Shown in pieces: positions 25,062 to 59,480 of a stretch of 64,000 bases of DNA. The position numbers and the translations under genes were made by a program. Origin of the DNA: Octopus sinensis (lineage: Eukaryota); NCBI RefSeq assembly GCF_006345805.1, contig NC_043001.1:132804001-132868000 (forward strand), written 5' to 3'. Under the pieces are notes generated by a model. It saw only the letters and a program-made list of their open reading frames with translations. It was not told where the DNA came from and made no database searches. Within the stretch, counting starts at the first letter, position 1. Each line of letters opens with the position of its first letter.

Positions 25062-25403
25062 ATTTCGGTACCAGTTTCGGTCATTGAGACCTTTTCGACT
25101 GTAAGTATGGAAAACAATTAAATTTTGGAAAAATTAAATTATAAGTTTTTTAAAAGAATATTCGCATAGTGTTTCTGCCTGTCTCTGTTTCTCTTGTTTG
25201 CTCTTGGGGGTTTGGGGTCATTGTGAATTCTTGGCAGAGAAGAAGAAGAAGAGGAAGAAGGAGGAGGAGGTTGTGGTGGTGGTGGTGGTGGTGGAGGAGA
25301 AGAAGAAGAAGAAGCAGGAGGAGGAGGAGGTAGTGGTGGAGGTGGTGGAGGAGGAGATGGATGTGGAGGAGGAGGAGGAGGAGGAGGAGGAGGAGAAGAA
25401 GAA

Positions 25404-25438
<35 letters not shown>

Positions 25439-25709
25439 AGAAGAGAAGAAGAAGAATGCGGGAGTACTACTATCATCGCACTCCCACATTCTTCTTCTTC
25501 TTCTTCTCTGCCAAGAATTCACAATGACCTCGAACCCACAAGAGTAAACAAGAGAGACAGAGACAGACAGAAACAAGGAAAATGCCCCTTGTATTTGAAT
25601 ACTACGCAAATATTCTTTTAAAAAACTTTTAATTTAAATTTTCCAAAATTTAATTGCTTTCTATACTTACAGTTGAAAAAGTCTCTATGACTGAAACTGG
25701 TACTGAAAT
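25062..25709. repeat. Foldback inverted repeat of a PLE pseudo-LTR-like sequence, with a GAA/GAG/GGT expansion in the left arm
   Basis: 25062-25250 is the reverse complement of ~25488-25709 (26-bp indel). Symmetry continues to gaagaatgcgggagt-(loop)-actcccacattcttc at ~25451-25494. Confidence 0.9.
25670..25705 (+). ncRNA. Minimal hammerhead-ribozyme-like motif (mirror copy at 25066-25101, minus)
   Basis: cag TTGAAAA AGTC tctat GACT GAAA CTGG TA ctg; mirror copy cag TCGAAAA GGTC tcaat GACC GAAA CTGG TA ccg. Confidence 0.6.
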
Positions 25710-25722
25710 ATATATGTATACA

Positions 25723-25775
<53 letters not shown>

Positions 25776-25925
25776 TATGTATGTATGTATGTATGTATGT
25801 ATGTATGTATGTATGTATGTTTATATATGTGTATATATTTAAATGTATATATGTATATATATGTGTATGTATATATGTATGTATGTATATATGTATATAT
25901 ATATATAGGTATGTGTGTGTGTATG

Positions 25926-25958
<33 letters not shown>

Positions 25959-26541
25959 TTATATGTGTGTGTATGTGTGTCTGAGTGTGTGTGTGTGTGT
26001 GTGTGAGTGTATTTGAAAAAATTAGTAGAGATGGCTTTCGGGGAGGATAATTTTTATTTTAATGGTAATATTTACAGTTACTCTAATGAGTTTCAAGATT
26101 TTTGATAGCCGTTTTCAAACTAAAATTCTGTGGTTTAGAAGGATATTTATATAGCAAAAGATTTTTTCTTACAAGCATAGAAAATAGGAAATAAAAGACG
26201 GAAAAAAAAAATAAAGAGTATAAAAACTAATATAAAAATTAATATAAAAAATAATAAAAGAATACAAAAGTAAATACACCAGCATGTGTAAAAAAAGAAG
26301 AAAGAAGAAAAGAAGAAGAAAAATGGAAAAAAGAAAAGGAAAAAGGTGGAAAGTAAGAAGAGAAAAAGTAGTTGAAAATGGTAGTGAGAAGAGATTAGTC
26401 TATCAGGAATAAAGACAGAATAATTTTAGGAGTAGTCAAAAACGTTGTTGAGTTCTTGTCAAAAGATGACCTTTGTGAATTTTTTGTTTTGGGGTCACTT
26501 TTTTCATTTTTCACAGTTGGTATTGTGTGCCCTTATTTAGT

Positions 26542-26572
<31 letters not shown>

Positions 26573-26655
26573 CAATCATCAAAGCAAAAATATCTCAACC
26601 ACAACCCTCAGAGGAAAACAAACACACAAAAACAAATATAAAAATGAACTCATAA

Positions 26656-27170
26656 GTGTTCCTTTTGCCCTCACCCACAAACCAAGAAATCACATCATCA
26701 ACACTGCAAAATGATAGATCACAATCCTTCAGCATTCAAGAACGAACCAATCCAATTAATAACAAACTCAAAAATAATTTATCACAGTTAAAAAAATGTG
26801 GTGGCCCTCATTGTGGAATGTGTGACTACATTGAAGAGGGAGTACAAATTAATTTGAAAAACAATGACACTTTCAAAATAAATGCGAATATGAACTGCAG
26901 ATCCAGGAATTCAATCTACTGTGCCACATGTCCTGAATGCAACGAATACTACATTGGTGAAGCAGGCATCAGACTATATGAGAGAGGAAGGGTACACAAA
27001 CAACAGATCTATGACCCATCCATTCGAAACATAACTTGTAGTGAACGTTTTGAAAAATGTGGAAAAAGAAAATGCAAAATAGTCACTTTTTTCAAACTGT
27101 GGACAGAAAATGAACATTTTCATAAGGCCAAGGAAGAATATTTTATTTAAAAATATCATCCTATTTTGAT
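26656..27170 (+). mobile_element. PLE GIY-YIG endonuclease fragment (Neptune-like)
   Basis: CGGPHCGMC...NCRSRNSIYCATCPECNEYYIGEAG..L.ER...H: cysteine motif followed by GIY-YIG; premature stop near the end. Confidence 0.88.
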
Positions 27171-28001
27171 GATTACACTATTTTCCTTTCTATGATGTTC
27201 TGTATTATGTATATTTTTTGTGACTTTATGTAAGCAAGTCTCCTTTTCACTAAATCATAAACCCATAAAAACTATAAAATAATACATACATATTGTAACA
27301 TTACAAATTATAAAATCTCTTCAGTCTAAATATCTTTAACTGCCCTCAATACTTCCATACCTATTACACCCACTTTTCGGATTACCTTTATCTCTTCCCT
27401 ACCTCTAATTTTAATCCCGTCTCTTTTATATGTAGGTTATATGTATTTCTTATTATTTTGTTTTCTTATTTTGATATCCTTACTTATTAACCACTTATTC
27501 CTTATAAATTGGTGTTTTTCTTGTTCTTAAATAGATATTTTTCAGTTACTTAAGTCTATGTGAGACATTTATACTATATCCATATAAATGTATAAATATT
27601 TGTGTATGTATATATATGTGTATATGCACATATATAAATATGTGTGTATCTGCATGCATCTTTACATTTTTCTGATGCATGACTTAAAATTAATAGACAG
27701 CATGTATATCTTTCCAGTTATCCCATAAGGAAATGCCCTGAGCAGTCTTTATAGAAACCACCTAATAAGTAATTAATTAAGTACATGAATGAACATTAAA
27801 GTAATTCTAAGTAATCTTCCTTTTTAATGTTTATAATTTATATATATACACACCTTTTACCTATTTAGGTTATGATATCATTTTTTAAATTATTAAAATT
27901 TTACTTTTATACAACATAACAATATTGTTTATAAACAATCACCTATAATGCCCCTAAATAAAATTTCCTCTGTCTTAACATCTTAGGTTTCTTGGCACCT
28001 T

Positions 28002-28275
28002 GCCCCTTTAACTGGTAATTAACATCATGATTTAAAGTCTACCCCTACCCTACTTCTTTTTATAGACAGTTACTTATATCCAACTGACTAATCTTAATGT
28101 CTTATTTCTTCCCTGGAAAAAAAGGGATACATAAGATAATATTTATGACTTTACCTAGCCATGAGCTGTCAACTCACTCCTGTCCTTTATTCGAAACAGA
28201 CAGTCTTCTACTCTTAAATTTAGTAGTTGATAAAGAGATAAGTGAATTAGAAATGAATTGCAATCACTTACAACC
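28002..28275. repeat. Dispersed repeat homologous to 37453-37690
   Basis: Shared cccctttaactggtaattaacatc...tatagacagttactt...ctgtcaactcactc...tttagtagttgataa; the second copy abuts the 5' side of the Naiad-like RT. Confidence 0.75.
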
Positions 28276-28434
28276 ATATGATCCCACTATGTTCCATGCA
28301 ATTCTTAGAAGTGTAGTCAGTCCTTGGCTACAATAGTGACAACATGAATTTCTTCCATTTTCCTACTCTGTTAAAATATTTGAGAAAAATTATATAAATG
28401 TGTCCTACTTGTTGAAATTATATTTATTCATGTG

Positions 28435-28520
28435 TGCAGCTGAAGTTGGCACTGCATTTAGATTGATGTAACGATTGCAATGTTCAATTAAATGGAACCC
28501 CTTGAAATGGTCGTACTGCA
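28435..28520 (+). ncRNA. Hammerhead-like motif, copy 1
   Basis: tgcag CTGAAGT [long hairpin] GAAA TGGTCG TA ctgca. Confidence 0.6.
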
Positions 28521-28734
28521 TCGCTACTTAATATCCAGTTGCTTATTTTAATTTTATTCACCTTACTTCAAGTGGTGCGGACTGACTTGGTGCTTCAAAT
28601 TAAGTACTGAATTCAACTGAATCTTAATTATGTGTTGGTGTGTGTGTGTGTGTGTGTGTGTGTGAGTGTGTGCGTGTGCATCTGTGCATGTGTGTTTGTG
28701 TGTATGTATATAAATAATATAACTATTCTGCCTA

Positions 28735-28990
28735 TATGTCTGTGCACACCTTTGAATGCAATGTATGCCAGAAAGGTTTTCAAATCTAAAGGAGGACCCA
28801 GAAAACATCTTAAGATCCACAAACATCACAAGTTATCTGCAGCTCTTAGTGGTCCAGATCAGATACACAATCTGCATGGGTGTTTTTTAAGAACGTTATC
28901 TGGTTTAAAAAGCTACATCAGATGCCATCATGGTTCTAGGGTGTAGGTTCAGGTGGTCAAAATCTGCATAAGGAGTAGACAACCACCATA
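28735..28990 (+). mobile_element. Probable RTE-like LINE 3' end with two decayed C2H2 fingers
   Basis: FECNVCQK/VFKSKGGPRKHLKIH (frameshift) and ..RTLSGLKSYIRCH, stop, short UTR, (TA)n. Confidence 0.5.
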
Positions 28991-29006
28991 TATATATATA
29001 TATGTC

Positions 29007-29039
<33 letters not shown>

Positions 29040-29245
29040 TTGTGTGTGTTTGTGTGTGTGTATATGTATAAATGCATATATATATATGTATATACATGTA
29101 TATATATATGTATATATATGCATCTTGGAAATTTTAGATATGATTAACTTGGAGATTTTAGATATAACTTAACTTCTTGGAAATTTTAGGTATAATTATA
29201 CTAATGTGTCCATCTGTTCTAATTTAATTAAATTCTATGTCTTCG

Positions 29246-29332
29246 TGCAGTTGAAGATTGCTCTGCATTTTAAATTGATGCAATAATTGCATTGTTCAAT
29301 TAAATGGAGTTGCATGAAACGATCGTACTGCA
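29246..29332 (+). ncRNA. Hammerhead-like motif, copy 2
   Basis: tgcag TTGAAGA [long hairpin] GAAA CGATCG TA ctgca: 5-bp helix I and palindromic helix III. Confidence 0.65.
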
Positions 29333-29407
29333 TTACTTCTGGATATCCTTATAATTATTTTGGTATGTATATAAATATGTATATATATGTATGTATGTAT
29401 ATGTATA

Positions 29408-29447
<40 letters not shown>

Positions 29448-30415
29448 GTATATATGTATATTTATATATATATATATATATAATATATATATATGTATAT
29501 ATGTATGTATATATATATATATGTATATATATAAATCTAGACATATATGTTCTTTTTGTATCACTTACTGTCCAAATGTTTTCTTGTCGTCTGTTACGTT
29601 CTTGCTCCATCTTATGTTTTGATTTTTCATATATACATATAGCAGTGTATGCACCCTTTTGGTCTCCTGTATGTATGTACATATATATATCCAAATTCTG
29701 TACAACTCTTTCCTTTAGTGCCTTTCTCACTTTCTTCATTCATACCACTTTTTCTCACTCCCACACTCTTTCATATTTTTGGGCAGTCGCTTCATTCTCA
29801 TTACTTTCCCTCTTCCCTTAGCTCAGTCTGTCCTCTTTCTTTTTCTCTCTTCTTCTCATCCCTCCCTAATTCTTCAATCCATCTACCCACTACCTCTCTT
29901 CTCTCCTTTCACTTGACCGGTGCTCAGCCAAGCCTGACCTTTCTTTCTTGGTTCGAATACCATCCATGTAGCATCTCTCATATTTCTTCCCATGACTTAT
30001 CTATTTTTCTGCTGTAAGGCTTCACTTCCACACACACCAGCTTAATTTAATTCATCCCTAGTCTAAAGACACCTGTTGCTAATGTCCTGTTGGTTGTATT
30101 TCTATTTGTGTAACATTTCTCCATATTTTTTCGTCCTTGTTTTCGTATACATTCACTTGCTTTTTTCCAAAGAATCTAGTGCTCTTAGCTTAGATTTCCT
30201 TGGGGCCAGCCAGATTAGAGCAGTCTCGAGATTAACAGGCTGAAAATTGCAAAGATTATCTGCTTCTCAACTGAAGATTCAAAGCTCTGAATGACCCGTC
30301 CTTGTTTTTCCTTCCTTTTTTTGTATCACCTACAGTCTAAATTTTTTCTTGTTGCAAGTTATGTTCTCATTCCATTTTTTGTTTTGATTTTTTTGTGTGT
30401 ACATACATATATATA

Positions 30416-30450
<35 letters not shown>

Positions 30451-30577
30451 CATGTATGTATGTATATGTATAAATGTATGTATATATATATATATGTATA
30501 TATATATATGTAAGTATGTATATATATATATATGTATATATATGTATATATATATTATATATATATGTATGTATATA

Positions 30578-30645
<68 letters not shown>

Positions 30646-32659
30646 CATATAATATGTATGGGGAAAGTAAGAAGAAAAAAACGAAAATGCACATTGACTA
30701 TAAAAAATAAAGGTTTTTTATGAAAAGTAATGATAAATATATACAATTAGATGAACTGAGGTAGAATTAAGAGGAATAAAAGTCATTATTTTGAATTGTT
30801 AAAGGGATTCAAGTCATACCGGTTTTATCAATTGCTGATCACTGGCTTTTAATGTGCACCAATTACCAAATGGTGTCGAGTCTACAACTCCCTGAGTAAA
30901 AAGGTTATATGCAAGGGAGGTAAGTAGTTCTGGGAGGGGTGCAATTAGGGTACATGTAATATTGTAATATAAATGATGTATGGAATGTATGGAAATTAGT
31001 GGTATTAACGGTAAGGTTAGTAGTGCTCTATATTATTTTATGTGTTCATGTTGAGTTGTTTATATTTATTGATGAAAGTCACTTCTTTACTCATTCTTTG
31101 CTGAACTGAGGTGTTCTGTGAACATTGATATGTGTTCACTGACCTGTAACTGTCTGTATTGTGGGTAGCAGATTTGTTCTTTGTGAAGAGTTCTTCTTCG
31201 ACGAAGTGACATTCCTGTTTGGCCAATATAATGATTACTGCACCCTAAGCAGGTAATGGCTTAGATTAGGCTTTCCAAGGCACAGGTGAAATATGATCTT
31301 ATCTTAAATATTTCACCTTGTTTAAAGTCGAACTCTGTACCCTCCAAAAGGTGGGGCATGTGCCACAATTAGGCTGACTGCATTTTTTCACTTTTGGTTC
31401 CATTGTTAATGGATATAGTCTTGCGTTGGTTAATATTTGTGCTCTTGATAATTTTGTGTGAGCCTAAAATTTTATTCATTGTATAATCTCCTGTGAGGAT
31501 GGGTAGATTTTGGATGATAATGTTAAAGGCCTCATTGTTTCTAGGGTTGTGTGTGGAGATGTATGGGAGTATTTTTAAGTGTGGTGTAATATTTCAGTTG
31601 ACTTCCCTTAATGTTCATGTGTCTATTTCCTTTGCTCATTTAATCCCATCATTTATCAATGATGCTGGGTAATGTCTCTTGATTAGTATTGATCTGAGTT
31701 CAAGGAGTATTGGTGTCCGAAACTATGGTACAGATTCTTTTCTCAAGATTATAAGGTATATTAATTTTTATGTGTTTGGGGTGGCATGGTATTGTTTTGA
31801 ATCTATGGGTTTATAGAAGATGTCCATTTCGATGTGATTATTGACTATTTTAATTAGGATGTCAAGAAAAGGGAGTTGTTTATTGCTATGTTCCATGGTG
31901 AATTGTATGTTGCTATTGATATTGTTGAGCATTATTTTGAAATCAAGGAGTTTGTCCAAGCTATCTTTCCAAAGTATAAATCAATCATCTAAATACCTCT
32001 TTCACTTCTCCTTTAAATAGCAATGAAATGAGGTGCCATATTTTTGTAGTGATGGCCAGTATATTTTAAGTTCTAGGTAACCCATTACAAGGTTTGCAAT
32101 CAATGAGGCAGCTCGAATTCCCATTGCAATTCCACATCTTTGTCTATAGTAAACTGTATCGAACAGGAAATAGTTGTTCAGTAGGATGAATTTCAGTGCT
32201 GAAATTATGAATCTGTGGTTGATGCATCCTGGGATTTCTTCTGGGTAATTTTCTAGCCAGAAAGTGATTGCTTCTATACTATAATCGTGTGCGATATTGG
32301 TGTACAAGTTCACCACATTGAATGATACTAGCAGGGACATCAGGAGGTGGTTTGAATAAGATGTCGAGGAAATTGCTCAAACGATGGGTTTCACAAGCAG
32401 GGCCAGCAATGATGAGTTTTAGTTTGAGGTGAGTAGGGGGGAGGAACATTAATGCATAGGCTTTTGAGAATCTTTGCAAGCTTTACAAATATGTGAATTT
32501 TTGTGTAGTTTAGGTAATCCGTAAAAAAAAATTTGGTCTGTATTTAAAATTGGATAAATAGTAAATTTCTTTTTTAGTGAGGCTCTTTCCATGTACTTGA
32601 AGTAAAGAAGATAACTTTTTAAGTGTCTGCTATGGATTGTATTGTACTATCTTCTCATA

Positions 32660-33216
32660 CGAAGGTGAGTCAAAAAGTAACGCCACTTTGCTTAGGACAG
32701 GTATAATTACCAACACAGGAACATGTATAATACATCAAAATGAAGTTGGTCCTCTGTGGATCACATACCTTCTTCTCAACATAGCCACCATTTCTCTCAA
32801 AAGCAATGTTCTACCTTCAAATGAGAGCATGTATCTCTGCCCCGTAAAATTCTGTTGACTGTTCTTTGAGCCACTTCTTCACTACACTTTTTACTTCCTC
32901 ATCACTGGAATAATATTTGCCTCTCAAACCCTCTTTCATGGGGCTGAAGAGATGATAGTCTGAATGCGCTAAATTATTCCAGTGAATTATTTCAGTGAAG
33001 AAGTGGCTCAAAGAACAGTCAATAGAATTTTATGGGACAGGGATACATGCTCTCATTCGAAAGTGGAACATTGCTATAGAGAGAAACAGTGACTATGTTG
33101 AGAAGTAGCGATGTGATCCACAGACCACCAGCTTCATTTTGATGTATTATACATGTTCCTGTGTTAGTAATTATACCTGTCCTAAACAAAAGGCCTTACT
33201 TTTTGACTCACCCTCG
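32660..33216. mobile_element. mariner-derived foldback element made of two inverted 3' ends
   Basis: TA|CGAAGGTGAGTCAAAAAGTAA...TTACTTTTTGACTCACCCTCG|TA; arms 32660-32883 and 32994-33216; encodes LAHSDYHLFSPMKEGLRGK...KKWL. Removing it restores the host frame NNIYYEKIVQY. Confidence 0.92.
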
Positions 33217-34007
33217 TAGTAAATATTGTTTTCCAACATGGAGAGTATTAAATTTTTATAGTACTCAGTGTCCATCACCACTCCCGCACTTCCTTTATCG
33301 GCTTCTTTAATGGTCAGGTTTATATCATTTTTAACTTGATTAGGTTTTTCCATTCATTTGAGTTAAGGTTGGATTTTAATTCGTTGTTTTTATAGGGTAT
33401 TGAAAGGAAAATTGGTAATGTGTTCACAAAAACCATCAAGTGCATTATTTCTCCCTTTTATAGAACAGTATTCGCTTTTGTTTTATTCTATTGAGTCATC
33501 TTCACTGGTGTAGTTATGAAGTGCTTCTGTGAGGTGCAATTTTCAGCAAAAATCCATAGTGTTATCCTTGATTTCATTTGGGTTCGATCTGCGAGGGGTT
33601 GATGTAAACTTTAAACCTCTTGCTAGAATTTTTGTTTGTGTAGTACTTAGGATTTTCTTTGATAAGTTGATTATTTTCGGTTGTTCTTGTACATTTTGTT
33701 CCATTTCACATCTCTGTTTCTCTGATTTAGGTCTAAAAAATGGTTGGAGTAGGTGGATTGTTGTGGCAAGTCTGTATTGTATTTGGTTTGGTGAGGAAAA
33801 AATGGGTTTAAAGTTTGTCTGTGGTAGTATGTTTGTGGTGGAATGACTGTGTAGTAGACTAAATTATGGTTGTACTGAGGGTTTGGGTTAAATTTATTTT
33901 CAATTTTGTAATGTGGGTGGAGGGAGAAGTTATATTGTCAAGTTAGGTTGTGTCTAGTTGAATGCTTGAAGTATTCATGTTGAGGGTTAAGTCTCAGTGG
34001 TAAGTTT

Positions 34008-34242
34008 ATAAGGCGGCGAGCTGACAGAATCGTTAGCACGTCGGGCGAAATGCTTAGCAGTATTTCATCTGCTGCTACGTTCTGAGTTCAAATTCCGCCG
34101 AGGTCGACTTTGCCTTTCATCCTTTCGGGGTCAATTAAATAAGTACCAGTTACGCACTGGGGTCGATATAATCGACTTAATCCGTTTGTCTGTCCTTGTT
34201 TGTCCCCTCTGTGTGTAGCCCCTTGTGGGCAGTAAAGAAATA
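34008..34242 (+). mobile_element. SINE family A, full length
   Basis: ggcggcgagctgacagaatcg...gagttcaaattcc...aagaaata; TSD ggtaagttt at 33999-34007 and 34243-34251. Confidence 0.92.
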
Positions 34243-34694
34243 GGTAAGTTTTTCCACTGTCTGTGAGATGATGGGGGTAGATTGGTAGGTTCCCGAAAGT
34301 TTAGGTTAGTCTGGAGGCTTGGATGGGTCTTTTGATTTGTATGCAGAGGGCCTTGAAAATTACATCTGGATTTTCTATTACAAACGGAATTCCTATTTGT
34401 TGCCTGGAAGTTATTTTGGTGCAGAAGTGAGATTAGTTCAGTGGATTTGTGTCCCCTAGATTGTCTGTGGTTTGAGTTAGATAAATGTGATGTCCTTTCT
34501 GCATGAGGTTTTGGTTTCTTTTTCTTCAAGAAGGGGTTATCCAATATGTTTTCTATGTTGAACTGTGTTTTGTAGTTTAGGAAGAAATTAGCTTGTCTTT
34601 CCCAGCGTTGTAGGGAATTGGTTTCTTCAGTTTCACATATTGTTTTCCATAGTTTAAAAACATTCTCCAAGAATTGACCATCTGAATGTTTCCT

Positions 34695-35112
34695 TGAGTA
34701 AATATATATCGAATTAACCCTTTCGTTACTGTATTTATTTTGAGATGCTCTGTGTTTCTTTCAATTATTTCAAATATAACAAAGAATTTAGTAAAATAAC
34801 TTAGTTATCATCAAGCTAATGTTAGGAACATAAATTGTGACTAAGGTTTGGCGGAAGATTTTAATTAACCCTTTCGTTACCAACCCGGCCAAAACCAGCT
34901 CTGGCTCTGTAGTACAAATGTCTTGTTTTCAATAGTTTTGAATTAAAATCTTCCACCAAACCTTAGTCACAATTTATGTTCCTAACACTAGCTTGATGAT
35001 AACTAAGTTATTTTACTAAATTCTTTGTTATATTTGAAATAATTGAAAGAAACACAGAGCATCTCAAAATAAATACAGTAACGAAAGGGTTAATTCGATA
35101 TATATTTACTCA
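34695..35112. repeat. Near-perfect inverted repeat, 172-bp arms, 74-bp spacer
   Basis: 34695-34866 is the reverse complement of 34941-35112; I see two mismatches. Confidence 0.95.
34869..35089. mobile_element. piggyBac-type MITE (family 1)
   Basis: TTAA|CCCTTTCGTTAC...GTAACGAAAGGG|TTAA. Confidence 0.88.
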
Positions 35113-35581
35113 TCAATGTTTTTTTAAATTTTTGTTCATTACTTAACGCTCTAAGTTTAAGGAGTTTGATTTCCGTCTTCATTTTTTTTCCAATGCTAGT
35201 TTCTCCCTTAATTGTCTTTGTTGGTCCTTCTTGTTTGGTATTAGTTTAATTTAAAATTTATGAGGTAAGATTATTGAGGTTGAATTTAACCAGTGTTCAT
35301 AAATTTCTGCCTTGTAGTTGATTTTAATCATATTCCAGAAAGAAAATTCTCTGGCTTTGAGTTTCTCATTCCAGATATGGATAATACAGTTTTTAATTGA
35401 TTGCATTAACGTGGAGGAGGTTCTATCGTGTGTATCATCTGTAAGAGGATTTTCATTTATACAACTGTCATGAGGTAACGATTGTAGAGTGGGGCATAAT
35501 TTGGTCAAATATTGATTGAGTTGTTCCACAGATTGTCCCTTCTTTTCTTTTTCCTTTGTCTCTTGTGTACATTGATTAAGT

Positions 35582-35966
35582 GGAGGCGCAATGGCCCAGT
35601 GGTTAGGGCAGCGGACTCGCGGTCGTAGGATCGTGGTTTTGATTCCCAGACCAGGCGTTGTGATTGTTTATTGAGCGAAAACACCTAAAGCTCCACAAGG
35701 CTCCGGCAGGGGATAGTGGTGATCCCTGCTGTACTCTTTCACCACAACTTTCTCTCACTCTTACTTCCTGTTTCTGTTGTACCTGTATTTCAAAGGGCCG
35801 GCCTTGTCACCCTCTGTGTCACACTGAATATCCTCGAGAACTACGTTAAGGGTACATGTGTCTGTGGAGTGCTCAGCCACTTACACGTTAATTTCACGAG
35901 CAGGCTGTTCCGTTGGTCGGATCAACTGGAACCCTCATCGTCGTAACCGACGGAGTGCTTCCATCC
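35582..35966 (+). mobile_element. tRNA-derived SINE (Arg-TCG-like head)
   Basis: tggcccagtggttagggc..gacTCGcggtc..ggttttgattccc; 13-bp TSD acattgattaagt at 35569-35581 and 35967-35979. Confidence 0.88.
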
Positions 35967-36019
35967 ACATTGATTAAGTTCATCAATCTTGTTAATTAGG
36001 AGTCTCAAATGCAGAAACT

Positions 36020-37440
36020 GCCCTCATTATTATTATAGATTGTAAAGTTATGGTTATAATTATTATTATTCTTTCTATCGTTATTTTTATTACTATTACT
36101 ATCAGCTTTGGTGGGGTTGTTCCTGTACGATTTATTTATTTTATTTACCTTGATATTATCATTTCCAACAGGGACTTCATTGTTTCTTTGAGGTGTGTTA
36201 TTTAAATTTTTATTGTTATTATTATTTTTCTTGCTATTGTTATCATTCCCATTATTAGTATTTCTATTGTTATCATATTTAATGTTATTATGAATCTTAT
36301 CGTTCTTCCAACTATTTTTGTTATTACTACTACTATTACTATTATTGTTATTCTTATGGATTTTGTGATGATCATAATAGACATTTTGGCTATTATTCCT
36401 ATTATTATAATTTTGAATATTTATGTAATTCGGGTTATTTCTATAGGGTTCTATGTAAAGGTACTTAACTTTTTGCTTATAACCTGCTTTTTCTAATGCC
36501 CTGTTGTAGAATTCTGTATACTTATTAAAGATATCTTCGTTGGATCAGAGATATGAGATTCTTTTGCTGATGCCTTGTATAAGTCCTCTTTTTATAAAGT
36601 TTGGGTGGTTGCTAGGTGCATTTATATATTTAAGGTTTGTATTCGATTTAATGTACAGTTCATGTAGTCCCATGGTTAGATTACTGTTGGCATCTAAGTA
36701 GTTAATAGAATTATGCTCTTTTTCTATTGTGATAGTTTAGCCAAAACATTTAAAGAACTTATATAGTTTTTCTTTAGTAGTTCTAGTTTCCTATTTGAGG
36801 TGTTTTTAAGGATAAATAATGTGTCATCTCTGTAAAGGCCTCTCCTGATCTCTCAGAATTCTTCATCAAAATGTGATAATAAGTAAATGCCTACTAAGTC
36901 AGATACCTGTGCTGAATCAGTGGCTCCCACAGTGATGTTGAAGTAATTAGGGGTATCTTTTCTTACCCATAATTAGTTAACGAATTTCATTAGCTTCCTA
37001 TATTTCCTAGCTTCTATGCCTACCTTAATTTCATTCATGGTCAATTCAGTATGTTTTTTGGTGAAGATAATCATAGGGTTAATTGATGAGTAGTAGTTCT
37101 CTATGTCTATTTGTAGGAACTTAAAGCTATTTTTATTCTGTATCTTGGATAACCAGTTAAGGGTGTCATAGGTATTTGACCATAAATCAAGGGTGATTTT
37201 ATTTTTTATAGTAGGGATATATTTATCTAATATTAAGTTACTTAGTTTACATAAATCAGATTTATTGGGGCAGATTAGTCTAACTTTCATGTCTGTTAAG
37301 AAATTTACTTTATGGTCCTTAATTGTTATGCAGGGTTTGGAAGGTGCAAAAAAGTTCAGTTTTCTCTTCTATGTTATAGTTGGTCGTAATTTTCTTGGCA
37401 AATCCCCCATGATAATTCCCTCTGTATTAACATCATAGGT
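36020..37440 (-). mobile_element. Decayed PLE reverse transcriptase, Naiad-like, with an Asn-rich linker
   Basis: VRLICPNKSDL...FLQIDIENYYSSI...FNITVGATDSAQVSDLVGIYLL...GLYRDD...INYLD...SNHP, followed by AAT-rich codons. Confidence 0.85.
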
Positions 37441-38500
37441 ATTATTAGCATCTTTCCCCTTTAACTGGTAATTAACATCTTGATTTAGGGTCTTCCCCAA
37501 CCCAGCCTCCTATATAGACAGTTACTTGAACATTTCCCAAAATCCTGACAATATTTATGACCATACCCAACTATAAACTGTCAACTCACTCTGTCTATCC
37601 ATTCTAGACAGACACTGTCCTCTGGCCTTAGATTTAGTAGTTGATAACAAAGACTAATAAATCAAAAAATGAACCACAATCCATTACAATAAACTGCAGC
37701 CATGCTAGGAGACCACCATGACTAGTGTACTTGAACAAATCAACCCCAGTACTTATTTTTAAGCCTTGTACTGATTCTGTCAGTTTCTTTTTATTGAACT
37801 GTTAAGTTACAGGGACATAAACAAACTAACACTGGTAGTCAAGTGATGGATGGGTGAGAAACATGACGATATGGCCAGATATATTTTCATAGAAGATTGG
37901 AAACAAAGGACACTGCTTCTATAATGGTAATAATCATTTACAGTAATTGCATAATTTCAAAACAAGGTGACATGAACCCACACCTTAACCCTTTAGCATT
38001 CAGATTATTCTGTCAATTGTAATGCTTATTTATTCACAGTTTTAAAGTAATCATGTATTGTCTTATAGTTTTCAGATTTTTATAAGGTAATTTAATTTTT
38101 AGAATGATATTGTAAGGTAGGTGTGAAGGGCCAAATCAGTGCACTTTAAACATAAAGCAGATTATATATTTTAGCTGGATATGGCTGATTTAAATGCTCA
38201 AGAGTTAAATGACAGCTGCTCTTTTATTAAACTTTGTGATAATTAAGATATTTTGTTCTGTATGTATGAATATTCTATTTTTCCTATTGGAGATATTGTT
38301 GAAAATTGTACATTATTAAAGTTGCTAATGAGAAGATGAGAATGTAAAGATTACAAAATAACAGGAAAATAAGAAAATTATGTTTATCACTTTTCAAATG
38401 TTATGCTTATTCAACTATTGTAGTCAATGATTTACTCATTGTTTTACAATAAGTTATTTCCTACAATAAATGCTCTCTCTTATTTTTACAAATGTTGTAC

Positions 38501-48281: not shown

Positions 48282-48501
48282 ATATATATATATAGTTAGG
48301 TATATATATAAATGTATATATATATCCATATATATATACAAATATATATTTCGTTTTGGGATTTGGTTTGCAAGCTTCTTTATGTGAGTTCGTATGTTGA
48401 AGCATATTCTGTTGTGTCTGGGGAGAGTCATTTTCTTTTTGTGCCTTATAATTTATGACACTCACCGGTAAAATTTCCACTTATTTCTTATTTTTATTTT
48501 C

Positions 48502-48538
48502 CTAAAATTTTCATTGTGTCTTGCAACCTTTTCAATAG
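48502..48538 (-). ncRNA. Minimal hammerhead-like motif
   Basis: cta TTGAAAA g GTTG caagaca CAAT GAAA AT TT tag. Confidence 0.55.
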
Positions 48539-49178
48539 ACTTAACAACTCTGTCCGTTATTTACACTGCATTCCTTTTTTTTGTTTGTGCGCATGTGTGT
48601 GGGTCTCTGTGTGTGTGCTTATGCACACATGCATGTACATATGTATGTGTGTATGTATGCATGTGTATGTATGTATATATGTGTGTATGTGTGCATGTGT
48701 ATGTATGTATATATGTGTGTATGTGTGCATGTGTATGTATGTATATATGTGTGTATGTGTGCATGTGTATGTATGTATATATGTGTGTGTGTGCATCTGT
48801 ATGTATGTATCCTGTATATTCATGTGCTTGCATGTCTGTGTTTGTGTATTTTCTATGTATGTGTGTGTGTGAGCGTGTGTTTGTATTTGTATGCACCTCT
48901 GTCTCCATGTGTGTGCATGTATGTGTGTGTGTGTGTTATGCAACTATGTACCATGTTTGTATGTATGGATGGATGTGCATCTCTATATATATATGGATCC
49001 GTATCTCCATATGTGTCCTTGTGTGGAGTAAAGTGTGTGTGTATATATGATCATGTGTGTCAGTCACCATTTGCATATGTGTGCTTGTCTGTTCTTATAA
49101 CCTATGTACCTATCCGTCTGTATGTTGATCTGTTTATTTTCATAGTCATATGCTTACATACAAAAAATGTAAGCATAA

Positions 49179-49234
<56 letters not shown>

Positions 49235-49901
49235 TACATATACCATGTTCTCCGTTTTTTTTTTTGGGGTTTTTCTTTGCATCTTTGCTGCCATACACAT
49301 TTGCTAGCTTTCTTACAAAGGGGTCTAATGCTTAGACTTTTTTGGAGGCAACTGGATCGAACCATCTCAAGTGTACCTGTCCAAAATGGTCATGACTTCT
49401 GGTACTTGACTGATGAAAGAAAGCTAAGAATAACCTTTCTTTTTTCGCTTGTCCTTCTAATTGTTGTTTTTCTGGTCCGCCTCTGAGTCGTCTATCCATC
49501 CAAATGTTTTAATGCCCTCTATTGCACGTTTGTTCCATTTTTATATATATATAAATTTGAGAGGGGAACCATTAAGTAGTGATAAATAAAATTGTAATGT
49601 TATTATCAGTTTGAATATATATATATTTTATTTTTAGTGAAGCAGGTGCTTGTGTAGTTCCCTAATATATATGAATATATTTGTATATCTTATATATGAT
49701 TAATAATTTTGCCTATATGGCTTTTACGCTCACAGCCAATAATGTTATTATTTTTAGGAATAATAATGTTCTTTATATTTATATTTACATACACACACAC
49801 ATATATATATAGGGAGAGTTTACAAAAAAAACAAGAGACAAAAACAGGTGGTGTACGAAACAAACAGATGTATTAGTATAATGCTCAGGAATAGAAAAAG
49901 T

Positions 49902-49937
49902 CTTTTACGTTTCGAGCCTACGCTCTTCTACAGAAAG
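49902..49937 (-). ncRNA. Minimal hammerhead-like motif
   Basis: cttt CTGTAGA a GAGC gtag GCTC GAAA CG TA aaag: helices I and II perfect, core has U at position 6. Confidence 0.62.
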
Positions 49938-50539
49938 GGACACAGAAAAAACAAAGAGAGAAAAAATGTATGTGTGTAGTGGCTAACGATCTATCATGAC
50001 ATCTCATATATAATATATATATAAGCTTTTGGTGTGAATGGTTTTATTATACGGTGCCATATTTTACAATCCTGTAAATAATAATAATGGTAATTTTATA
50101 TAAGCTTAAAGCTTATATAAAAATACCATATATATATATATATATATATATAAATACTTTAGTTTACTTTACTTTTCCAGTAAGATAAGATCAAGAAAAA
50201 AAGTTATTCCATCCAGTGTGAGATGAATATTTTTATGTACACAGTATATAGTTTTGAGCTGCAAATATTTTCATACACTGAAGATTTTATCTAGATAGGT
50301 TTTTAAAACATGTCTAGTGTCCCCAAGTAATCTTCAGACTCAGAACACATGACCTGTACAAGTTACAAATCAGGATGACAGAACAAGAGAAACCATGTGA
50401 AAATAAGCAAAATGAAAATTGATGCAAAAAGTAGAAGGATGAAAGACATGAAACACAAAAGGAAAAAAAAAAAGAAAAGAATTAGAGTTATGTTCCATTT
50501 TACCATAAAGTCATTAGACTAGATGGTGTAAGATCAACA

Positions 50540-52061: not shown

Positions 52062-52099
<38 letters not shown>

Positions 52100-52148
52100 A
52101 ACGAACAAATATAGACATACATATGTGTACATATTTATATCTATATAG

Positions 52149-52180
<32 letters not shown>

Positions 52181-52913: not shown

Positions 52914-52979
<66 letters not shown>

Positions 52980-53858: not shown

Positions 53859-53899
<41 letters not shown>

Positions 53900-53981
53900 T
53901 ATATGTACATATATATATATGCACATATATATATATATATATATGTACATATATAGATATCTGGAGATATATGGGTTTCTT

Positions 53982-54019
<38 letters not shown>

Positions 54020-55002: not shown

Positions 55003-55033
<31 letters not shown>

Positions 55034-55164
55034 CATACATACATACATACATACATACTACATACATAAATACATACATACATACAAACATGCATATGTA
55101 TATACATGCATACACAGAAGTATTAATATTGACAATGAAACATACACACCAATATCCATTATAG

Positions 55165-55209
<45 letters not shown>

Positions 55210-55245
55210 ATATACATACATATACGCATGATACGTATGTATGTA
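51790..55245. repeat. Extended compound TA/TG/TACA/GA microsatellite field with small unique islands
   Basis: Directly visible. Confidence 0.9.
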
Positions 55246-56026
55246 TTACATCAAACTACGCTAAACTTCATACAAAAGTTTAAAAAAGAAACAAAATATT
55301 TTGTGTATTTTTGTTGGAGTTTTATTTTTATTTTTCGCATTGAGATGAATGAATGAAAAAGAATGCTTTCTTTGACTTTCACTCAGCAAGCACATCAAAT
55401 ACATTTATAGATTTACATGATGACTAAACAACAGAGCATAGGAACATTTAAAACATCTGAATATAAATGGTTAATTGAGATAAATATATCACATGTGGGA
55501 TCGCACATTTTACACTGGAAAATTTTTCAAAATTAAAAGTGAAGTTACAATTTGAGCCATCAAATCATCCAATTACAATTTAATTTTGAAATGTGTCTCA
55601 ATAAAGTGAAAGAAAGCTAAATTGATCATTATCAAGAGAAAAATGGAGCTTGATCAATGTACAATTATCAATAGCAGTGAAATTATAATCTTTATGCTAC
55701 TTCTTACATCAATTGATATTTTCGATTTGTCCGTTGTGCAGGAAAATCCAGTTGATCTATATTCTTGATTCACAACTACTGATATCATAAGAGTAATTAA
55801 ATCAAATGAAATACAATATACTTACTTCTGGATGGCATTTTGAAGTCTTTTATTGCCTGTCAGGAATGATAACATTAAGAAACAAAGTGGAACAAATGCT
55901 TATATTATACAATTATACTTTTGTCTTTGAAGAATAAAAAGAATTATGAAGAGGGCAAAATACTTGGGCATGCAATAATAAAGTAAAATCAGCTATTAGC
56001 AAAAAACAAAATATTATATAAAATTG

Positions 56027-56545
56027 GGTGCAAGCGTAGCTAATTTGGCATACATGACTGTATGGTTGAAAAGTTTGCTTCCTAAACATAGGACTTTAGG
56101 TTCAATCCCACTGCATGTCACCTTGAGAAAGTGTCTTCTATAGCCCCAGGCCAACCAAGCTTTGTAAGTGGATTTGGTGAATGGAAACTAAAAGCGACCC
56201 ATCATATAAATATATGCATGTATGTGTGTGCGTGTGCATGTGTATGAACGTGTATGTGTGCAAATGTGTGTGTGTATGCATATGTGTTTGTGAGCATGAA
56301 TATGTTATCATTGCCTTGACATGACATCACATGGGAGTTGTAAATGAGTGTCACTGTCATACAAGCAGTGTCACTCATTTCCGATATTCTGAGAAAATGT
56401 GTCTGGCTTTGGGGAAATATTACCTTTGGAAACAAGTAAGGATTGACAACAGAAGGGCATCTGACTGTAGAAAATCTGCTTCAGTAAACTCCCTCTGATG
56501 CATGCAAGCATGAAAACATGAACATTAAAACAACGATGATGATGA
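56027..56545 (+). mobile_element. Family C-type head with GAAGGGCATC/(GAT)n tail
   Basis: Same layout at ~44575-44925; head-only copies at ~20243, 59877 and 61945. Confidence 0.75.
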
Positions 56546-56625
56546 CTATATATAAATAATAGCATTAGTGCCAAACAGTGATGAAGAATAAATGAATTTT
56601 AGCTTAGTTAATGTTTGTAACATTT

Positions 56626-57523
56626 GGTAGCAAAATGTTCCCAGACTAGTTCTGTAGCATGTCAACAGAGGGCAGCACATAATTGCTTGTTCAATGAGAA
56701 CTTGCAGTGACCTTCATGAGGCAGTGTGCTGAGTGACATCATTGTGTTTACTTCACAAGTTGTCAAATTTGTGTTGTGATCATGTGTATGCAGTAGTCTG
56801 CAATTTTGTCAGGGACAGGAACAAAAAGCCAACATGAAATTTTGCGTTAAACTTGGGAAATCTACTATGGAGACATTGAGCATGCTTCAGCAAGCTTACG
56901 ACAATGGAGCAATGGGCCGTGTGCAATATTTCAAGTGGCATAGACACTTCAAAAATGAAAGAACATCCTTGGAAGATTATGAGCGATCTGGAAGACTTGT
57001 CACAAGAATCACCCCCAGAAATGTGGTATTGTGCATTGAGAATTCATCTCCCAGGATCAGACCATTGGTCGTGAGTTCTACTGCGACATTTTGAAGTGTT
57101 TGAAGGAGGACATTTGGCAAAAGCAGCTGGATCTGTGGAGCGCAAAGAATTGGATTCTTCACAACAAAAATGCACCCTGTCACTGAGCTCTCCTCATTTG
57201 TTAGTTTCTTGCCAAAAACAACATGGTACCACTTCCACACCCACCCGATTCCCCAGATTTAGCACCTGCAGACTTCCATCCCTTCTTCAGGATGAAAATG
57301 CAGCTCAAAGATCTCTGTTTTAACACTGTTGTTGAGATCCAGAGTGAATCGCAGAAGGTCCTCAACTCCCTTACATAAAAATACTTCCAGGCTGGATTCC
57401 AAAAGTGGCAGGAATGCAGGGACCAGTGCATTGCTGTGCAAGGTGACTATTTCGAAGTTTGGGTAAATAAGTTTTTTTTTTATTAAATATAATTAGTCCA
57501 GGAACCTTTTGATACTACCTCAT
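56626..57523 (+). mobile_element. Internally deleted, decayed mariner transposon
   Basis: MKFCVKLGKS..ETLSML..AY...FKW..FK.....ED.ERSGR, then WILH.NAPCH...PHPPDSPDLAPADF...GDYFE; imperfect TIRs ggtagcaaaatgttcccagacta / tagtccaggaaccttttgatactacc. Confidence 0.9.
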
Positions 57524-58319
57524 ATTTTAACTTCTAAAGGCAAATTCACTACAGTTACCATGGAGAAAAATATTCTCTTTTGGTACTAGGTGTAAAAGCA
57601 CCATATATGCCTAGTGCTTCCCCTTAGCAGATTCCCAGATGCATTTCTGGATCTTTAGCCTCCCACAATGGGAAATACCAAAGAGAGAAAACAGCTTTAT
57701 CCGAAAACTTTATTCCTCATATAGCACTGATGCTATTTTTATTTGAATGAACACAACTCAGTCACTGATGTTGACTGTTTTTAGAAAAAGCTACAGTTTT
57801 AAATCTGCCCAGAGTTATCTCTTTTCAATAAAATTCTTCTGAAGCAGCTGTCATAAATTTCAAATGCCATTTATCTTCTCTTTTTATACCTGTTCCACAC
57901 CTGAAACCAACCCGAGACTTGGATCTACAGTCTTAATTGGATTTATCACTTACATATCTACAGTACCCTGCCAACACTTGATACCTTAGATATCATTTAC
58001 CATATCCTACGTGTTGATATGGCTAGAGTCTATTAAATCCTTATAACTAATATATATCATCATCATTTAACGTCCATTTTCCATGCCGGCATGGTTTGGA
58101 CAGTAAGACCAGTGCTAGGTGCTTTTATGTGGCACCATATGAGTACTCTCATGTGGCATCAGACAAATGCTTTTTATGTGGCACCAGCACAGGATTCTTG
58201 CAGGCCAATCCTCTTCCCCAGGGAAAGCAGTCTTAACAATTCTGTTGTGGAGTATGAGTCTTCTTGCATACAGCAAGGCACCAGGTATCTCAGCCCTTTG
58301 TCATCTCATCTGAACAGTT

Positions 58320-58493
58320 CAGCATATAGTAGTTCTCAGGGTTTGCTAGTCTTGAATTCCTCTATTATGGCTTGGAGGACAATGATGAAAAGGAAGAGAC
58401 TGAGGACTAAGCCTTGATGAATGCTTACCTGTACACCAAATTCTTCGATGTACTCATTAGCTCTTACCTTACTGACTGCATATCTGTACACAG

Positions 58494-58532
<39 letters not shown>

Positions 58533-59480
58533 TAATCCAAACATGAAAGCACAAAAAAAACACAACAACGCGAGGACATGGAACAAATATAGTATTATTG
58601 GACGCTCAGGAAAGAAGGAAAGAAGGAGGGTTTAACGTCTCAACCGGAGCTCTTCGTCAGAAACATAGGAGAAGGAAAGATCCAGAGAAGGGAAGACAGA
58701 GGAAAAAATGTCCCTGCTCAATCTGTAGAAAAGGTATAGGTAGAAACTTTGTAAGATGTACTGGGAGTAAGCTATGGCTACATAAGAGGTGCAGCAATAT
58801 CAAAGGAAGGTTAACTGGGAATATAGTTTTTGTATGTGGCAGATGCACAGGGGCAATAAACACCAAAGATGTACAGAAAACAGATTCCATCACATGCCAG
58901 GGGGAAAAACTAGAAGTAGTTGATAGTTTCCATTACCTAAGTAACCAAGTCAGTAGCACAGATGGATGCTCTGAGAGCATAACTGCTAGAATAAGAACAG
59001 ACTGGGCAAGTTCAGAGACCACCTGCCTCTGTGATTAACAAAGGGCCTGTTGCTCAAAGTGAAAGGTATGCTGAGGACATGTGTAGGCTTGAAAGAAATG
59101 AAGCTAGTATGCTCAACTGGATGTGTAATGTCAGTGTGTATACACAACAAAGTAAGTGCCCTAAGAGAAAATGGCACTTTTTCACACAGCTCTCCTCATC
59201 CATACCAATGCAAATTTCTCTCTTGCACGCCACATCCGATGCTTCTTATATCCAACATTTCTCTGAGGGTGCTTACACTCTGTCATGTGTGCACACTGAC
59301 ATTACATATCCAGCTGATCATGCTAAATTCATTTCTTTGAAGTCTTCAACAGTCATGGCCCATGTTTCACTGCCGTGTAGCATGGAAGTTCACACACATG
59401 CATCATACAATCTACCTTTCACTCTGAGCGAAAGGCCCCTTGTCACCAGTAGGGGTAGAAGCATTCTGAACTTTGCCTCT
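58320..59480. mobile_element. Rearranged RTE LINE fragments in both orientations
   Basis: Minus VSIHQGLVLSLFLFIIVLQAI (58336-58495); plus CSICRKG..CTG..WLHKRC..VCGRC..VVDSFHYL (58710-59170); minus LSLRVKGRLYDACV..HGSETW (59175-59480). Confidence 0.85.
58630..58664 (-). ncRNA. Decayed minimal hammerhead-like motif
   Basis: gttt CTGACGA a gagc tcc ggtt GAGA CG TT aaac; the surrounding module resembles 49810-49990. Confidence 0.5.

What the first reader, a model, noticed from the sequence alone, without database searches (positions are those of the whole stretch)
25066..58664. Several distinct short repeat families each carry a minimal hammerhead-like fold and end in TA-rich microsatellite
Seen: the layout helix I - core - helix II - GAAA - short helix III - UH - helix I recurs at 25066/25670, 28435/29246, 30815, 48502, 49902 and 58630. 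The stem sequences differ between families. Helix III is palindromic (CCGG, CGATCG, AAAATTTT, ACGT) or one or two changes away from it (CTGG, TGGTCG). Most sit in 150-300-bp ORF-less modules whose 3' end runs into (TA)n/(TACA)n. Established: PLE pseudo-LTRs and metazoan retrozymes carry minimal type-I hammerheads whose palindromic helix III allows dimeric cleavage. Inference: a diverse set of microsatellite-targeting solo pLTR/retrozyme-like RNAs mobilised by the PLEs here. Those on the minus strand would be in sense orientation in the kinesin pre-mRNA. I cannot check whether these families are already described.
Basis: partly seen in the sequence, partly recalled or inferred. Interest (0 to 1): 0.72.

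Follow-up and report, generated by a model that had tools for sequence, protein, structure and literature searches.

The report
Hammerhead-bearing ends of Penelope-like retrotransposons
The eight hammerhead-like folds are worn copies of the tail ends of six abundant Penelope-like jumping genes that sit in TA repeats, a known arrangement; two families also make uniform ~200-base copies, likely because copying runs to the element's own transcription start.

Summary
All eight motifs belong to high-copy repeat families whose majority forms are minimal type-I hammerheads of the kind described in Penelope-like elements (PLEs; PMC4209133). A strict descriptor gives 8 hits in 600 kb of evenly sampled genome, against 0.5±0.7 in shuffles. 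The 'ORF-less solo/retrozyme' reading is mostly wrong. Each family joins upstream to a PLE GIY-YIG endonuclease gene: five Neptune-type, one Hydra-type. The 30815 motif ends a decayed ~4-kb PLE inside the window. Copies end in (TA)n at fixed sites, are 5'-truncated and are rarely tandem (12 neighbouring pairs among 371 copies). Six of eight window copies lack a canonical core. Three things were not found in the papers I could read: a natural G3-C8 core in two families, a fixed A6U core in one very abundant family, and a sharp 5' wall in two families that yields unit-length ~200-bp solo ends. The wall likely marks the pLTR transcription start. No cleavage or RNA was shown. Verdict: new member of a known kind, interest 0.35.

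The parts
25015..25465 (-). F1 PLE 3' end (Neptune-type), 5'-truncated, left arm of a head-to-head inverted pair; includes internal trinucleotide microsatellite; 3' end runs into (TACA)n
   Evidence: GIY-YIG with CX4CxxC linker and CCHH upstream in L032, L035, L038, L056
25066..25101 (-). F1 hammerhead, U3-A8 core with U4C, G10.1-C11.1, helix I mismatch; degenerate
25466..25708 (+). F1 PLE 3' end, right arm of the inverted pair, ends 3 nt after the hammerhead in (TA)n
25670..25705 (+). F1 hammerhead, U3-A8 core intact, A10.1-U11.1, helix III CUGG (family CCGG)
27156..28634 (+). F2b: 1.5-kb non-coding 3' part of a sister subfamily of F2, ending in (TG)n
28435..28520 (+). F2b hammerhead with long branched helix II; A9U breaks the core in this copy
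29168..29362 (+). F2 PLE 3' end (Hydra-type), 5'-truncated, short 3' end into (TA)n
   Evidence: CxCX5C GIY-YIG about 2.7 kb upstream in L367, L370, L373, L384
29246..29331 (+). F2 hammerhead, U10.1.U11.1, helix III CGAUCG; C3U in this copy leaves a U3.G8 wobble
30656..34760 (-). F3: decayed near-full-length Neptune-type PLE (RT, linker, GIY-YIG, 3' end) with later insertions; 3' end in (TA)n
30811..30849 (-). F3 hammerhead, family core G3-C8, 2-bp helix II, helix III CCGG; G12A breaks this copy
48349..49190 (-). F4 PLE 3' UTR and end (Neptune-type linker), with internal TACA-rich tract; 3' end in (TA)n
   Evidence: GIY-YIG stop about 700 nt upstream of the hammerhead in L133, L139, L142
48501..48539 (-). 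F4 hammerhead, U3-A8 core intact, extra base after A9, helix II weakened in this copy
49812..49998 (-). F5 unit-length solo pLTR (5' end at -84, inside the family's 5' wall), between TA tracts
   Evidence: RT and GIY-YIG upstream in L341, L342, L348
49902..49937 (-). F5 hammerhead, identical to the family majority, which carries A6U
58530..58708 (-). F6 solo pLTR, cut at -67 (short of the wall), 3' end in (TA)16
   Evidence: full pLTR-ORF-pLTR elements L331, L332, L334
58630..58664 (-). F6 hammerhead; A14G and two helix II changes break this copy
18372..18551 (-). Kinesin motor-domain exon; all eight motifs lie in the ~89-kb intron upstream of it (inferred from colinear exons)

Best explanation
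The motifs are the minimal hammerheads in the 3' pseudo-LTRs of six Penelope-like retrotransposon families (five Neptune-type, one Hydra-type), left as 5'-truncated copies that end in TA-rich microsatellites, likely by target-primed reverse transcription. Shown: each motif is on the coding strand, 45-250 nt before one or two fixed 3' ends, and downstream of a GIY-YIG gene in longer copies. Inferred from PMC11167929 and PMC8557442: the endonuclease nicks (TA)n and the RT starts at fixed internal sites of an uncleaved RNA, which gives the short end and the 'tail' end. The ribozyme would cut only as a dimer through its self-complementary helix III, or with help from the PLE protein. In F5 and F6 most copies stop at a 5' wall 80-103 nt before G12. 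This is likely run-off at the start of a transcript made from the pLTR's internal promoter, so the 5' pLTR of an element would shed ~200-bp solo copies. The window copies are mostly dead.
For: ORF links: F1, F3, F4; F4; F5, F6; F2. Truncation ladders up to 1.3-1.5 kb. Two 3' end sites: F1 16 and 16, F3 11 and 16, F2 46 short and 46 longer. 22 head-to-head pairs among 371 copies. Descriptor excess. Between families the stems differ but stay paired and the 3-8 pair is C-G, U-A or G-C; 15 of 22 descriptor clusters have helix I of 5 bp or more where only 3 were asked for. Compensatory changes between sister families: helix I C-G/G-C (F5/F6), helix II U-A/G-U (F2/F2b). Wall: among copies met incidentally, F5 9 of the 14 that reach -80 stop by -92 and F6 8 of 9 stop between -86 and -103; stop rate 12-fold above elsewhere. 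The F5 wall falls on an initiator-like TCAGTC; an internal pLTR promoter is known (PMC2377424, PMC3846280 passages).
Against: No cleavage or transcript was observed. F5 carries A6U in 53+ of 74 parsed copies and none has A6; A6 changes lower activity (PMC3088659 section 8), so F5 may not cleave. F6 is a mix of U4 and C4 (24 and 28 of 62 parsed). F3 has only a 2-bp helix II and a helix I mismatch. Monomer folding does not favour the hammerhead fold in most window copies (z -2.2 to +1.1), and the AAUU duplex of F4 is not stable on its own (+2.2 kcal/mol). Each sister-family alignment has only one well-supported compensatory event, and descriptor-picked families are paired by construction. The wall intervals were chosen after seeing the data and n is 32. 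The F6 wall has no clear initiator. No RT was recovered for F1, F2 or F4, and no tree was built for clade assignment.
Confidence: 0.8

Rival explanations
1. The F5 and F6 ~200-bp units are self-propagating SINE-like elements: solo copies are transcribed from their own internal promoter (perhaps helped by the flanking TATA-rich array) and re-inserted by PLE protein in trans.
For: 5' wall and fixed 3' end; short copies dominate (F5 18 of 23 and F6 8 of 9 incidental copies end at or before the wall); initiator-like motif in F5; internally deleted F6 derivatives with many different junctions exist; U4 is seen in 25 of 50 solo but 4 of 20 longer F6 copies.
Against: Main F6 haplotypes are shared between solo and ORF-linked copies, and both 3' junction types occur with both U4 and C4, which fits fresh priming on element RNA. 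The solo and linked sets were picked by different queries, so the U4 difference is confounded. In PMC11167929 the protein needs RNA downstream of the pLTR, which solo copies lack.
Confidence: 0.2
2. They are non-LTR retrozymes: tandem monomers cut by the hammerheads into circles that are copied back into the genome.
For: A few same-strand arrays: L331 three units at 273-280 bp, L250 and L262 pairs at 560 and 527 bp. Retrozymes are argued to derive from pLTRs (bioRxiv 10.64898/2026.07.22.740005).
Against: Only 12 same-strand neighbouring pairs within 1.5 kb among 371 copies, one being a 36-bp internal duplication; the L164 trimer includes unrelated repeat DNA and looks like a local duplication. 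Ends are not at the cleavage site. PMC7229834 passages tie retrozymes to canonical hammerheads and set the minimal PLE type apart.
Confidence: 0.07
3. The folds are chance matches or catalytically dead relics with no selected RNA structure.
For: Window-only descriptor test is not significant; six of eight window copies lack a canonical core; F5 has A6U.
Against: 16-fold descriptor excess genome-wide; about 14 multi-copy clusters with different paired stems and three kinds of 3-8 pair; constant strand and position in the PLE.
Confidence: 0.05

Closest known systems
Minimal hammerheads (min-HHR) of metazoan PLEs, Cervera & de la Pena 2014 (PMC4209133)
   Same: Type I fold, palindromic helix III, extra base after A9 (F4, F5, F6), U3-A8 variant (F1, F4), many consensus families per genome, mostly single motifs from truncated PLEs, some inverted pairs; molluscs Lottia and Crassostrea are in its supplement.
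   Different: G3-C8 core (F3 and a second family outside the window), fixed A6U (F5), C4/U4 mix (F6) and a 55-nt branched helix II with U10.1.U11.1 (F2) are not in the text I read; no octopus row in the one supplement file searched.
Neptune and Hydra clade PLEs (PMC8557442)
   Same: C-terminal GIY-YIG; CX2-5CxxC linker plus CCHH (F1, F3-F6) or CxCX5C without CCHH (F2); (TA)n targets; tail; inverted truncated copies. Hydra-1_Obim, (TA)n-targeting, is listed for an octopus.
   Different: F2 has a ~2.7-kb non-coding 3' region with an internal ~850-bp repeat, where Hydra elements are described as under 3 kb in all; F6 has a ~2-kb CA/TACA-rich 3' UTR.
PAc, Poseidon of Anolis (PMC11167929)
   Same: Two fixed RT start sites giving a tail; copies made from uncleaved RNA; C3G/G8C double change partly active, so F3's core is workable.
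   Different: In PAc the hammerhead overlaps the ORF start; in F6 it lies ~400 nt before the ATG, and the F6 junction itself holds a short TA run that could pair with the target.
Non-LTR retrozymes (PMC7229834; bioRxiv 10.64898/2026.07.22.740005)
   Same: Short non-coding units with type I hammerheads related to pLTRs; monomers dispersed.
   Different: Here copies are continuous with PLE coding sequence, seldom tandem, minimal rather than canonical, and no circle is shown.

Membership tests
PLE minimal hammerhead | Type I layout with core N3-U-G-A-N-N8-A ... GAAA ... UH and a paired 3-8 | tested here: met
   Family majorities F1, F4 (U3-A8), F2, F2b (C3-G8), F3 (G3-C8), and the U4 half of F6
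PLE minimal hammerhead | A at position 6 (family F5) | tested here: not met
   0 of 74 parsed F5 copies have A6; U6 in most, C6 in 3
PLE minimal hammerhead | Self-complementary helix III for dimer formation | tested here: met
   All six families; duplex energies -10.0 to +2.2 kcal/mol, weak for F4, F5, F6
PLE minimal hammerhead | Extra base after A9 and G10.1-C11.1 | tested here: inconclusive
   Both in F4, F5, F6; G-C without extra base in F3; A-U in F1; U.U in F2
PLE minimal hammerhead | Located in the pLTR of a PLE, coding strand | tested here: met
   both flanks of the ORF shown for F6 only
PLE minimal hammerhead | Self-cleavage as dimer or with protein | not testable with these tools
   needs in vitro assay
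Neptune PLE (F1, F3, F4, F5, F6) | CX2-5CxxC linker and CCHH GIY-YIG at the C terminus | tested here: met
   Read from translations; Pfam GIY-YIG E 0.004, below cut-off, for F5
Neptune PLE (F1, F3, F4, F5, F6) | RT domain upstream of the endonuclease | tested here: inconclusive
   Seen for F3, F5, F6 (RVT_1 E 2.5e-4 and 1.7e-5, below cut-off; motifs); not fetched for F1, F4
Neptune PLE (F1, F3, F4, F5, F6) | RT phylogeny places it in Neptune, not Nematis | not tested
Hydra PLE (F2) | CxCX5C linker, no CCHH, CxxC and CxH motifs, (TA)n target | tested here: met
   against PMC8557442 section 11
Hydra PLE (F2) | Short element, under 3 kb | tested here: not met
   3' non-coding part alone is about 2.7 kb
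Non-LTR retrozyme | Tandem monomers, each with a hammerhead | tested here: not met
   12 same-strand neighbouring pairs among 371 copies
Non-LTR retrozyme | No link to own coding sequence | tested here: not met
   all six families join a PLE ORF
Non-LTR retrozyme | Accumulates as circular RNA | not testable with these tools
   no raw RNA reads available
SINE-like non-autonomous PLE derivative (F5, F6) | Unit length with a defined 5' end | tested here: met
   (n = 32 incidental copies, intervals chosen after viewing)
SINE-like non-autonomous PLE derivative (F5, F6) | Own lineages without an ORF-linked master | tested here: inconclusive
   F6 haplotypes shared, sampling biased; F5 not tested

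The most novel reading that the evidence does not exclude
Two Neptune PLE families have turned their pseudo-LTR into a ~200-bp, promoter-to-priming-site unit that spreads through (TA)n arrays as a SINE in its own right, in the order of 10^4 copies, one of them with a hammerhead whose catalytic A6 is lost while stems and palindrome are kept. The fold would then serve as a protein-binding or dimer signal rather than a ribozyme, which bears on the open question of what PLE hammerheads are for.
Probability: 0.2. Interest if true: 0.65.

Novelty: new member of a known kind. Interest (0 to 1): 0.35.

Why it matters
The role of PLE hammerheads in vivo is still called a mystery (PMC7761336 passage). 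This genome offers a natural series for testing it: C3-G8, U3-A8 and G3-C8 cores, a U4/C4 pair of subfamilies, and an abundant A6U family, all recently mobile enough to reconstruct. If A6U spreads as well as intact cores, cleavage is dispensable. The 5' wall would be genomic evidence for a side effect of internal RT priming, and could explain some of the many unclassified short repeats in octopus annotations (893 unclassified SINE families among recent insertions in PMC13282606; not compared here). About 14 net descriptor hits per 600 kb imply some 6x10^4 motifs genome-wide (extrapolated). For the host gene the effect is likely nil: of the five copies in sense to the kinesin intron, two are broken, two have non-canonical cores, and the one intact core (48502) has no family partner in the window.

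Tried and rejected
Rfam scan at E up to 10: the 150 rows shown were microsatellite matches to miRNA models; 288 rows were not shown. The repeat finder on the window was swamped by (TA)n. Window-only shuffle test: not significant. First 3'-flank test was flawed because alignments ran through the reference's own TA tract; redone. CpG decay as the source of F6 U4: rejected, since the opposite-strand product was seen 1 time against 26 U4 cores. Link of the 28435 copy to the GIY-YIG at 26656-27150: no other locus spans the junction, so they are treated as separate insertions. Sequencing runs: no RNA holder listed. Contigs of runs guessed to be RNA cover the F6 pLTR, and summed depth was a few hundred times higher on the pLTR than on the ORF in three runs and more in one, but contig depth is no copy number or expression measure and showed no start, end or circle; not used as evidence. 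A depth dip near the cleavage site coincides with this copy's own mutations; not used. Monomer folding was uninformative, as expected for dimer-type motifs. Lunse, Weinberg & Breaker 2017 is not held; I saw only its title in reference lists, and it may already report G3-C8 or A6 variants. Literature searches: hammerhead+Penelope+octopus (5 papers, 4 listed), hammerhead+cephalopod+ribozyme+retrotransposon (3 papers, 2 listed), hammerhead+G3-C8+natural (1 paper, an engineered variant), Penelope+solo pLTR+internal promoter+truncated (13 papers, 12 listed): none of those opened describes these families or a 5' wall. Repbase, Dfam and the octopus library on Zenodo could not be checked.
Full report
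Setting. The window is G000:C5:132,804,001-132,868,000 of a 2.72-Gb genome. A kinesin motor exon lies at 18372-18551 on the minus strand (Pfam E 2e-12). Colinear minus-strand matches at 132,911,426 (model 61-116), in the window (105-167), 132,659,029 and 132,645,369 place everything from 18552 to 64000 in one intron of about 89 kb.

Observation. All eight motifs are present. In the window alone a descriptor is not above chance (3 vs 1.25±0.9), because most copies are damaged. In 60 evenly spaced 10-kb stretches a strict descriptor found 8 vs 0.5±0.7 in 20 shuffles and a relaxed one 16 vs 1.9±1.3 in 15 shuffles. Each motif belongs to a family with at least 40 scored copies and 991-2,733 first-look candidates. 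In the 600-kb sample F1 had 3 copies, F2/F2b 2, F5 5, and F3, F4, F6 none, so copy numbers are roughly 10^3-10^4.

Family majorities. F1 (25066, 25670): U3-A8, A10.1-U11.1, helix III CCGG. F2 (29246) and F2b (28435): C3-G8, U10.1.U11.1, long branched helix II, CGAUCG or CGGUCG. F3 (30815): G3-C8, 2-bp helix II, CCGG. F4 (48502): U3-A8, extra base after A9, AU. F5 (49902): C3-G8, A6U, extra base, CG. F6 (58630): C3-G8, U4 or C4 (24 and 28 of 62 parsed cores), extra base, CG. Across all 420 loci held (1.94 Mb, mostly selected by my queries) the relaxed descriptor gave 250 hits in 14 clusters of two or more plus 19 singletons, with different paired stems and 3-8 pairs C-G, U-A and G-C. A second G3-C8 family outside the window has a 7-bp helix I and a 5-bp helix II, forms head-to-head pairs and ends in (TA)n; no ORF was linked to it. 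Stem pairing in descriptor hits is built in, but helix I reached 5 bp or more in 15 of 22 clusters listed where 3 were required. Alignments of sister families gave 96-98% paired cells and one clear compensatory site each; these are single events, so the support is modest. U3-A8 and U10.1.U11.1 are known natural variants and A6 changes lower activity (PMC3088659, section 8 and passages). A C3G/G8C double change partly restores a PLE hammerhead (PMC11167929, main text parts 1-2).

What carries them. Longer copies of every family lead upstream to a PLE endonuclease. F1: CX4CxxC linker and CCHH GIY-YIG within 1.5 kb. F3: the window copy itself holds decayed RT, linker and endonuclease from about 34760 to 30656. 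F4: endonuclease stop about 700 nt before the motif. F5: RT plus endonuclease in L341, endonuclease in L342 and L348. F6: pLTR-ORF-pLTR units of 4.4-5.4 kb in L331, L332, L334. F2: three walking searches reached a CxCX5C endonuclease without CCHH about 2.7 kb upstream, the Hydra signature (PMC8557442, section 11). F2b was assigned by its similarity to F2, not by its own ORF. Copies end at one or two fixed sites (F1 16 and 16; F3 11 and 16; F2 46 short, 46 longer) followed by microsatellite in 228 of 320 copies with an end motif, background 7.9% (57 of 377 copies had no end motif and were left out; overlapping loci may count a few copies twice). F1-F4 show 5' ladders from tens of bases to over 1 kb. 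Among 371 copies there were 22 head-to-head pairs, 4 tail-to-tail pairs and 12 same-strand pairs within 1.5 kb. The 25015-25708 structure is such a head-to-head pair. All of this is the known PLE pattern (PMC4209133, whole main text; PMC8557442, passages), and (TA)n-targeting Hydra and Naiad families are listed for octopuses in the supplement table of PMC8557442.

The one unexpected pattern. F5 and F6 copies do not show a ladder. Among copies met by chance in flanks or in the even sample, 9 of the 14 F5 copies that reach -80 from G12 stop by -92, none of the remaining 5 stops before -137, and 8 of 9 F6 copies stop between -86 and -103 (1 F5 and 2 F6 incidental copies could not be mapped). The query-selected copies show the same pile-up. 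The stop rate is 12 times that elsewhere; the intervals were chosen after viewing, so the p value overstates it. The F5 wall falls on TCAGTC, initiator-like (consensus recalled; a similar motif is noted in rotifer pLTRs, PMC3846280 passage). Penelope has an internal pLTR promoter (PMC2377424 passages), and PLE RT starts inside the RNA just downstream of the pLTR (PMC11167929). Put together, a transcript starting in the 5' pLTR and primed at the first internal site would give exactly a ~200-bp solo copy. This step is inferred. Whether solo copies then spread on their own was inconclusive. F6 also has many internally deleted derivatives with different junctions, two with hammerheads 527-560 bp apart.

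Mechanism. Shown: strand, position, fixed 3' ends in (TA)n, truncation, ORF links. Inferred: endonuclease nick in (TA)n, internal priming, copying of uncleaved RNA (copies span the cleavage site on both sides), cleavage only as dimers or with protein. Not shown: any cleavage, transcript or circle. State of the window copies: 25670 and 48502 keep a U3-A8 core; 49902 equals its A6U family; 25066 has U4C and a helix I mismatch; 28435 A9U; 29246 C3U; 30815 G12A; 58630 A14G. An effect on the kinesin pre-mRNA is unlikely.

Novelty. The class, the dimer logic, U3-A8, genome-wide single motifs and TA targeting are in print. The retrozyme-PLE link is argued in bioRxiv 10.64898/2026.07.22.740005 (text parts 1-3 of 5 read; supplements closed; 35 species, described as vertebrates, insects and one anthozoan). 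Searches found no account of these families' hammerheads, of a natural G3-C8 core or of a 5' wall. PMC13282606 (parts 1-2 of 3) lists Penelope-like and unclassified SINE families for an octopus and I saw no mention of ribozymes; PMC6962438 (passage) counts 235 Rfam hammerheads in giant squid. Lunse et al. 2017, repeat databases and file 1 of the PMC4209133 supplement were not seen and may cover the variants. Also opened as passages only: PMC7229834, PMC6765202, PMC3884650, PMC11014351, PMC7761336. Verdict: real, largely explained, new member of a known kind; interest 0.35.

Noticed in passing
window 26656-27150 (+): Fragment of another Neptune-type GIY-YIG (Pfam E 0.0026), cut at its end by the F2b copy; no hammerhead of its own found.
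   Followed up: partly
window 35250-37450 (-) and 37455-37650 (+): Decayed Hydra-like RT fragments with an Asn-rich stretch, next to an inverted piece that resembles the F2/F2b 3' region; may be an inverted PLE insertion of a third subfamily.
   Followed up: no
window 62940-63620 (-): Hydra-like endonuclease fragment preceded by an Ala/Thr-rich low-complexity frame.
   Followed up: no
window 32640-33220 and 56780-57190: Mariner-type transposase remnants (HTH_48 E 7.5e-5 for the second); the first interrupts the F3 element.
   Followed up: no
window 58709-59100 (+): LINE fragment with a PHD-like finger (E 1.8e-4) joined to the truncated 5' end of the F6 copy.
   Followed up: no
window 21610-22165: Three tandem 184-bp copies (98% identical) of a common short repeat; an inverted copy at 34010-34246 sits inside the F3 element.
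   Followed up: no
window 10394-10460 and 11035-11100: A ~640-bp local duplication carrying a weak one-mismatch descriptor hit; not matched to any family.
   Followed up: no
L039, L085, L092, L113, L198, L227, L302, L355: Second G3-C8 hammerhead family, well paired, in head-to-head pairs ending in (TA)n; better test case than F3. No ORF linked yet.
   Followed up: partly
L331:6100-6900: Three F6 pLTR units at 273-280-bp spacing separated by (TA)n after a full-length element; a natural multimer substrate for a cleavage test.
   Followed up: partly
L241-L270: F6 internal-deletion derivatives joining the ORF start to the 3' end at many different points.
   Followed up: partly
L351-L360 (F2 upstream): The 2.7-kb AT-rich 3' region of F2 holds a degenerate ~850-bp internal repeat (about 70% identity) with no open frame.
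   Followed up: partly
L331:4200-6000: The F6 3' UTR is about 2 kb of CA/TACA repeats, and F4's holds a TACA tract, so these PLEs may also seed the microsatellites that fill this genome.
   Followed up: no
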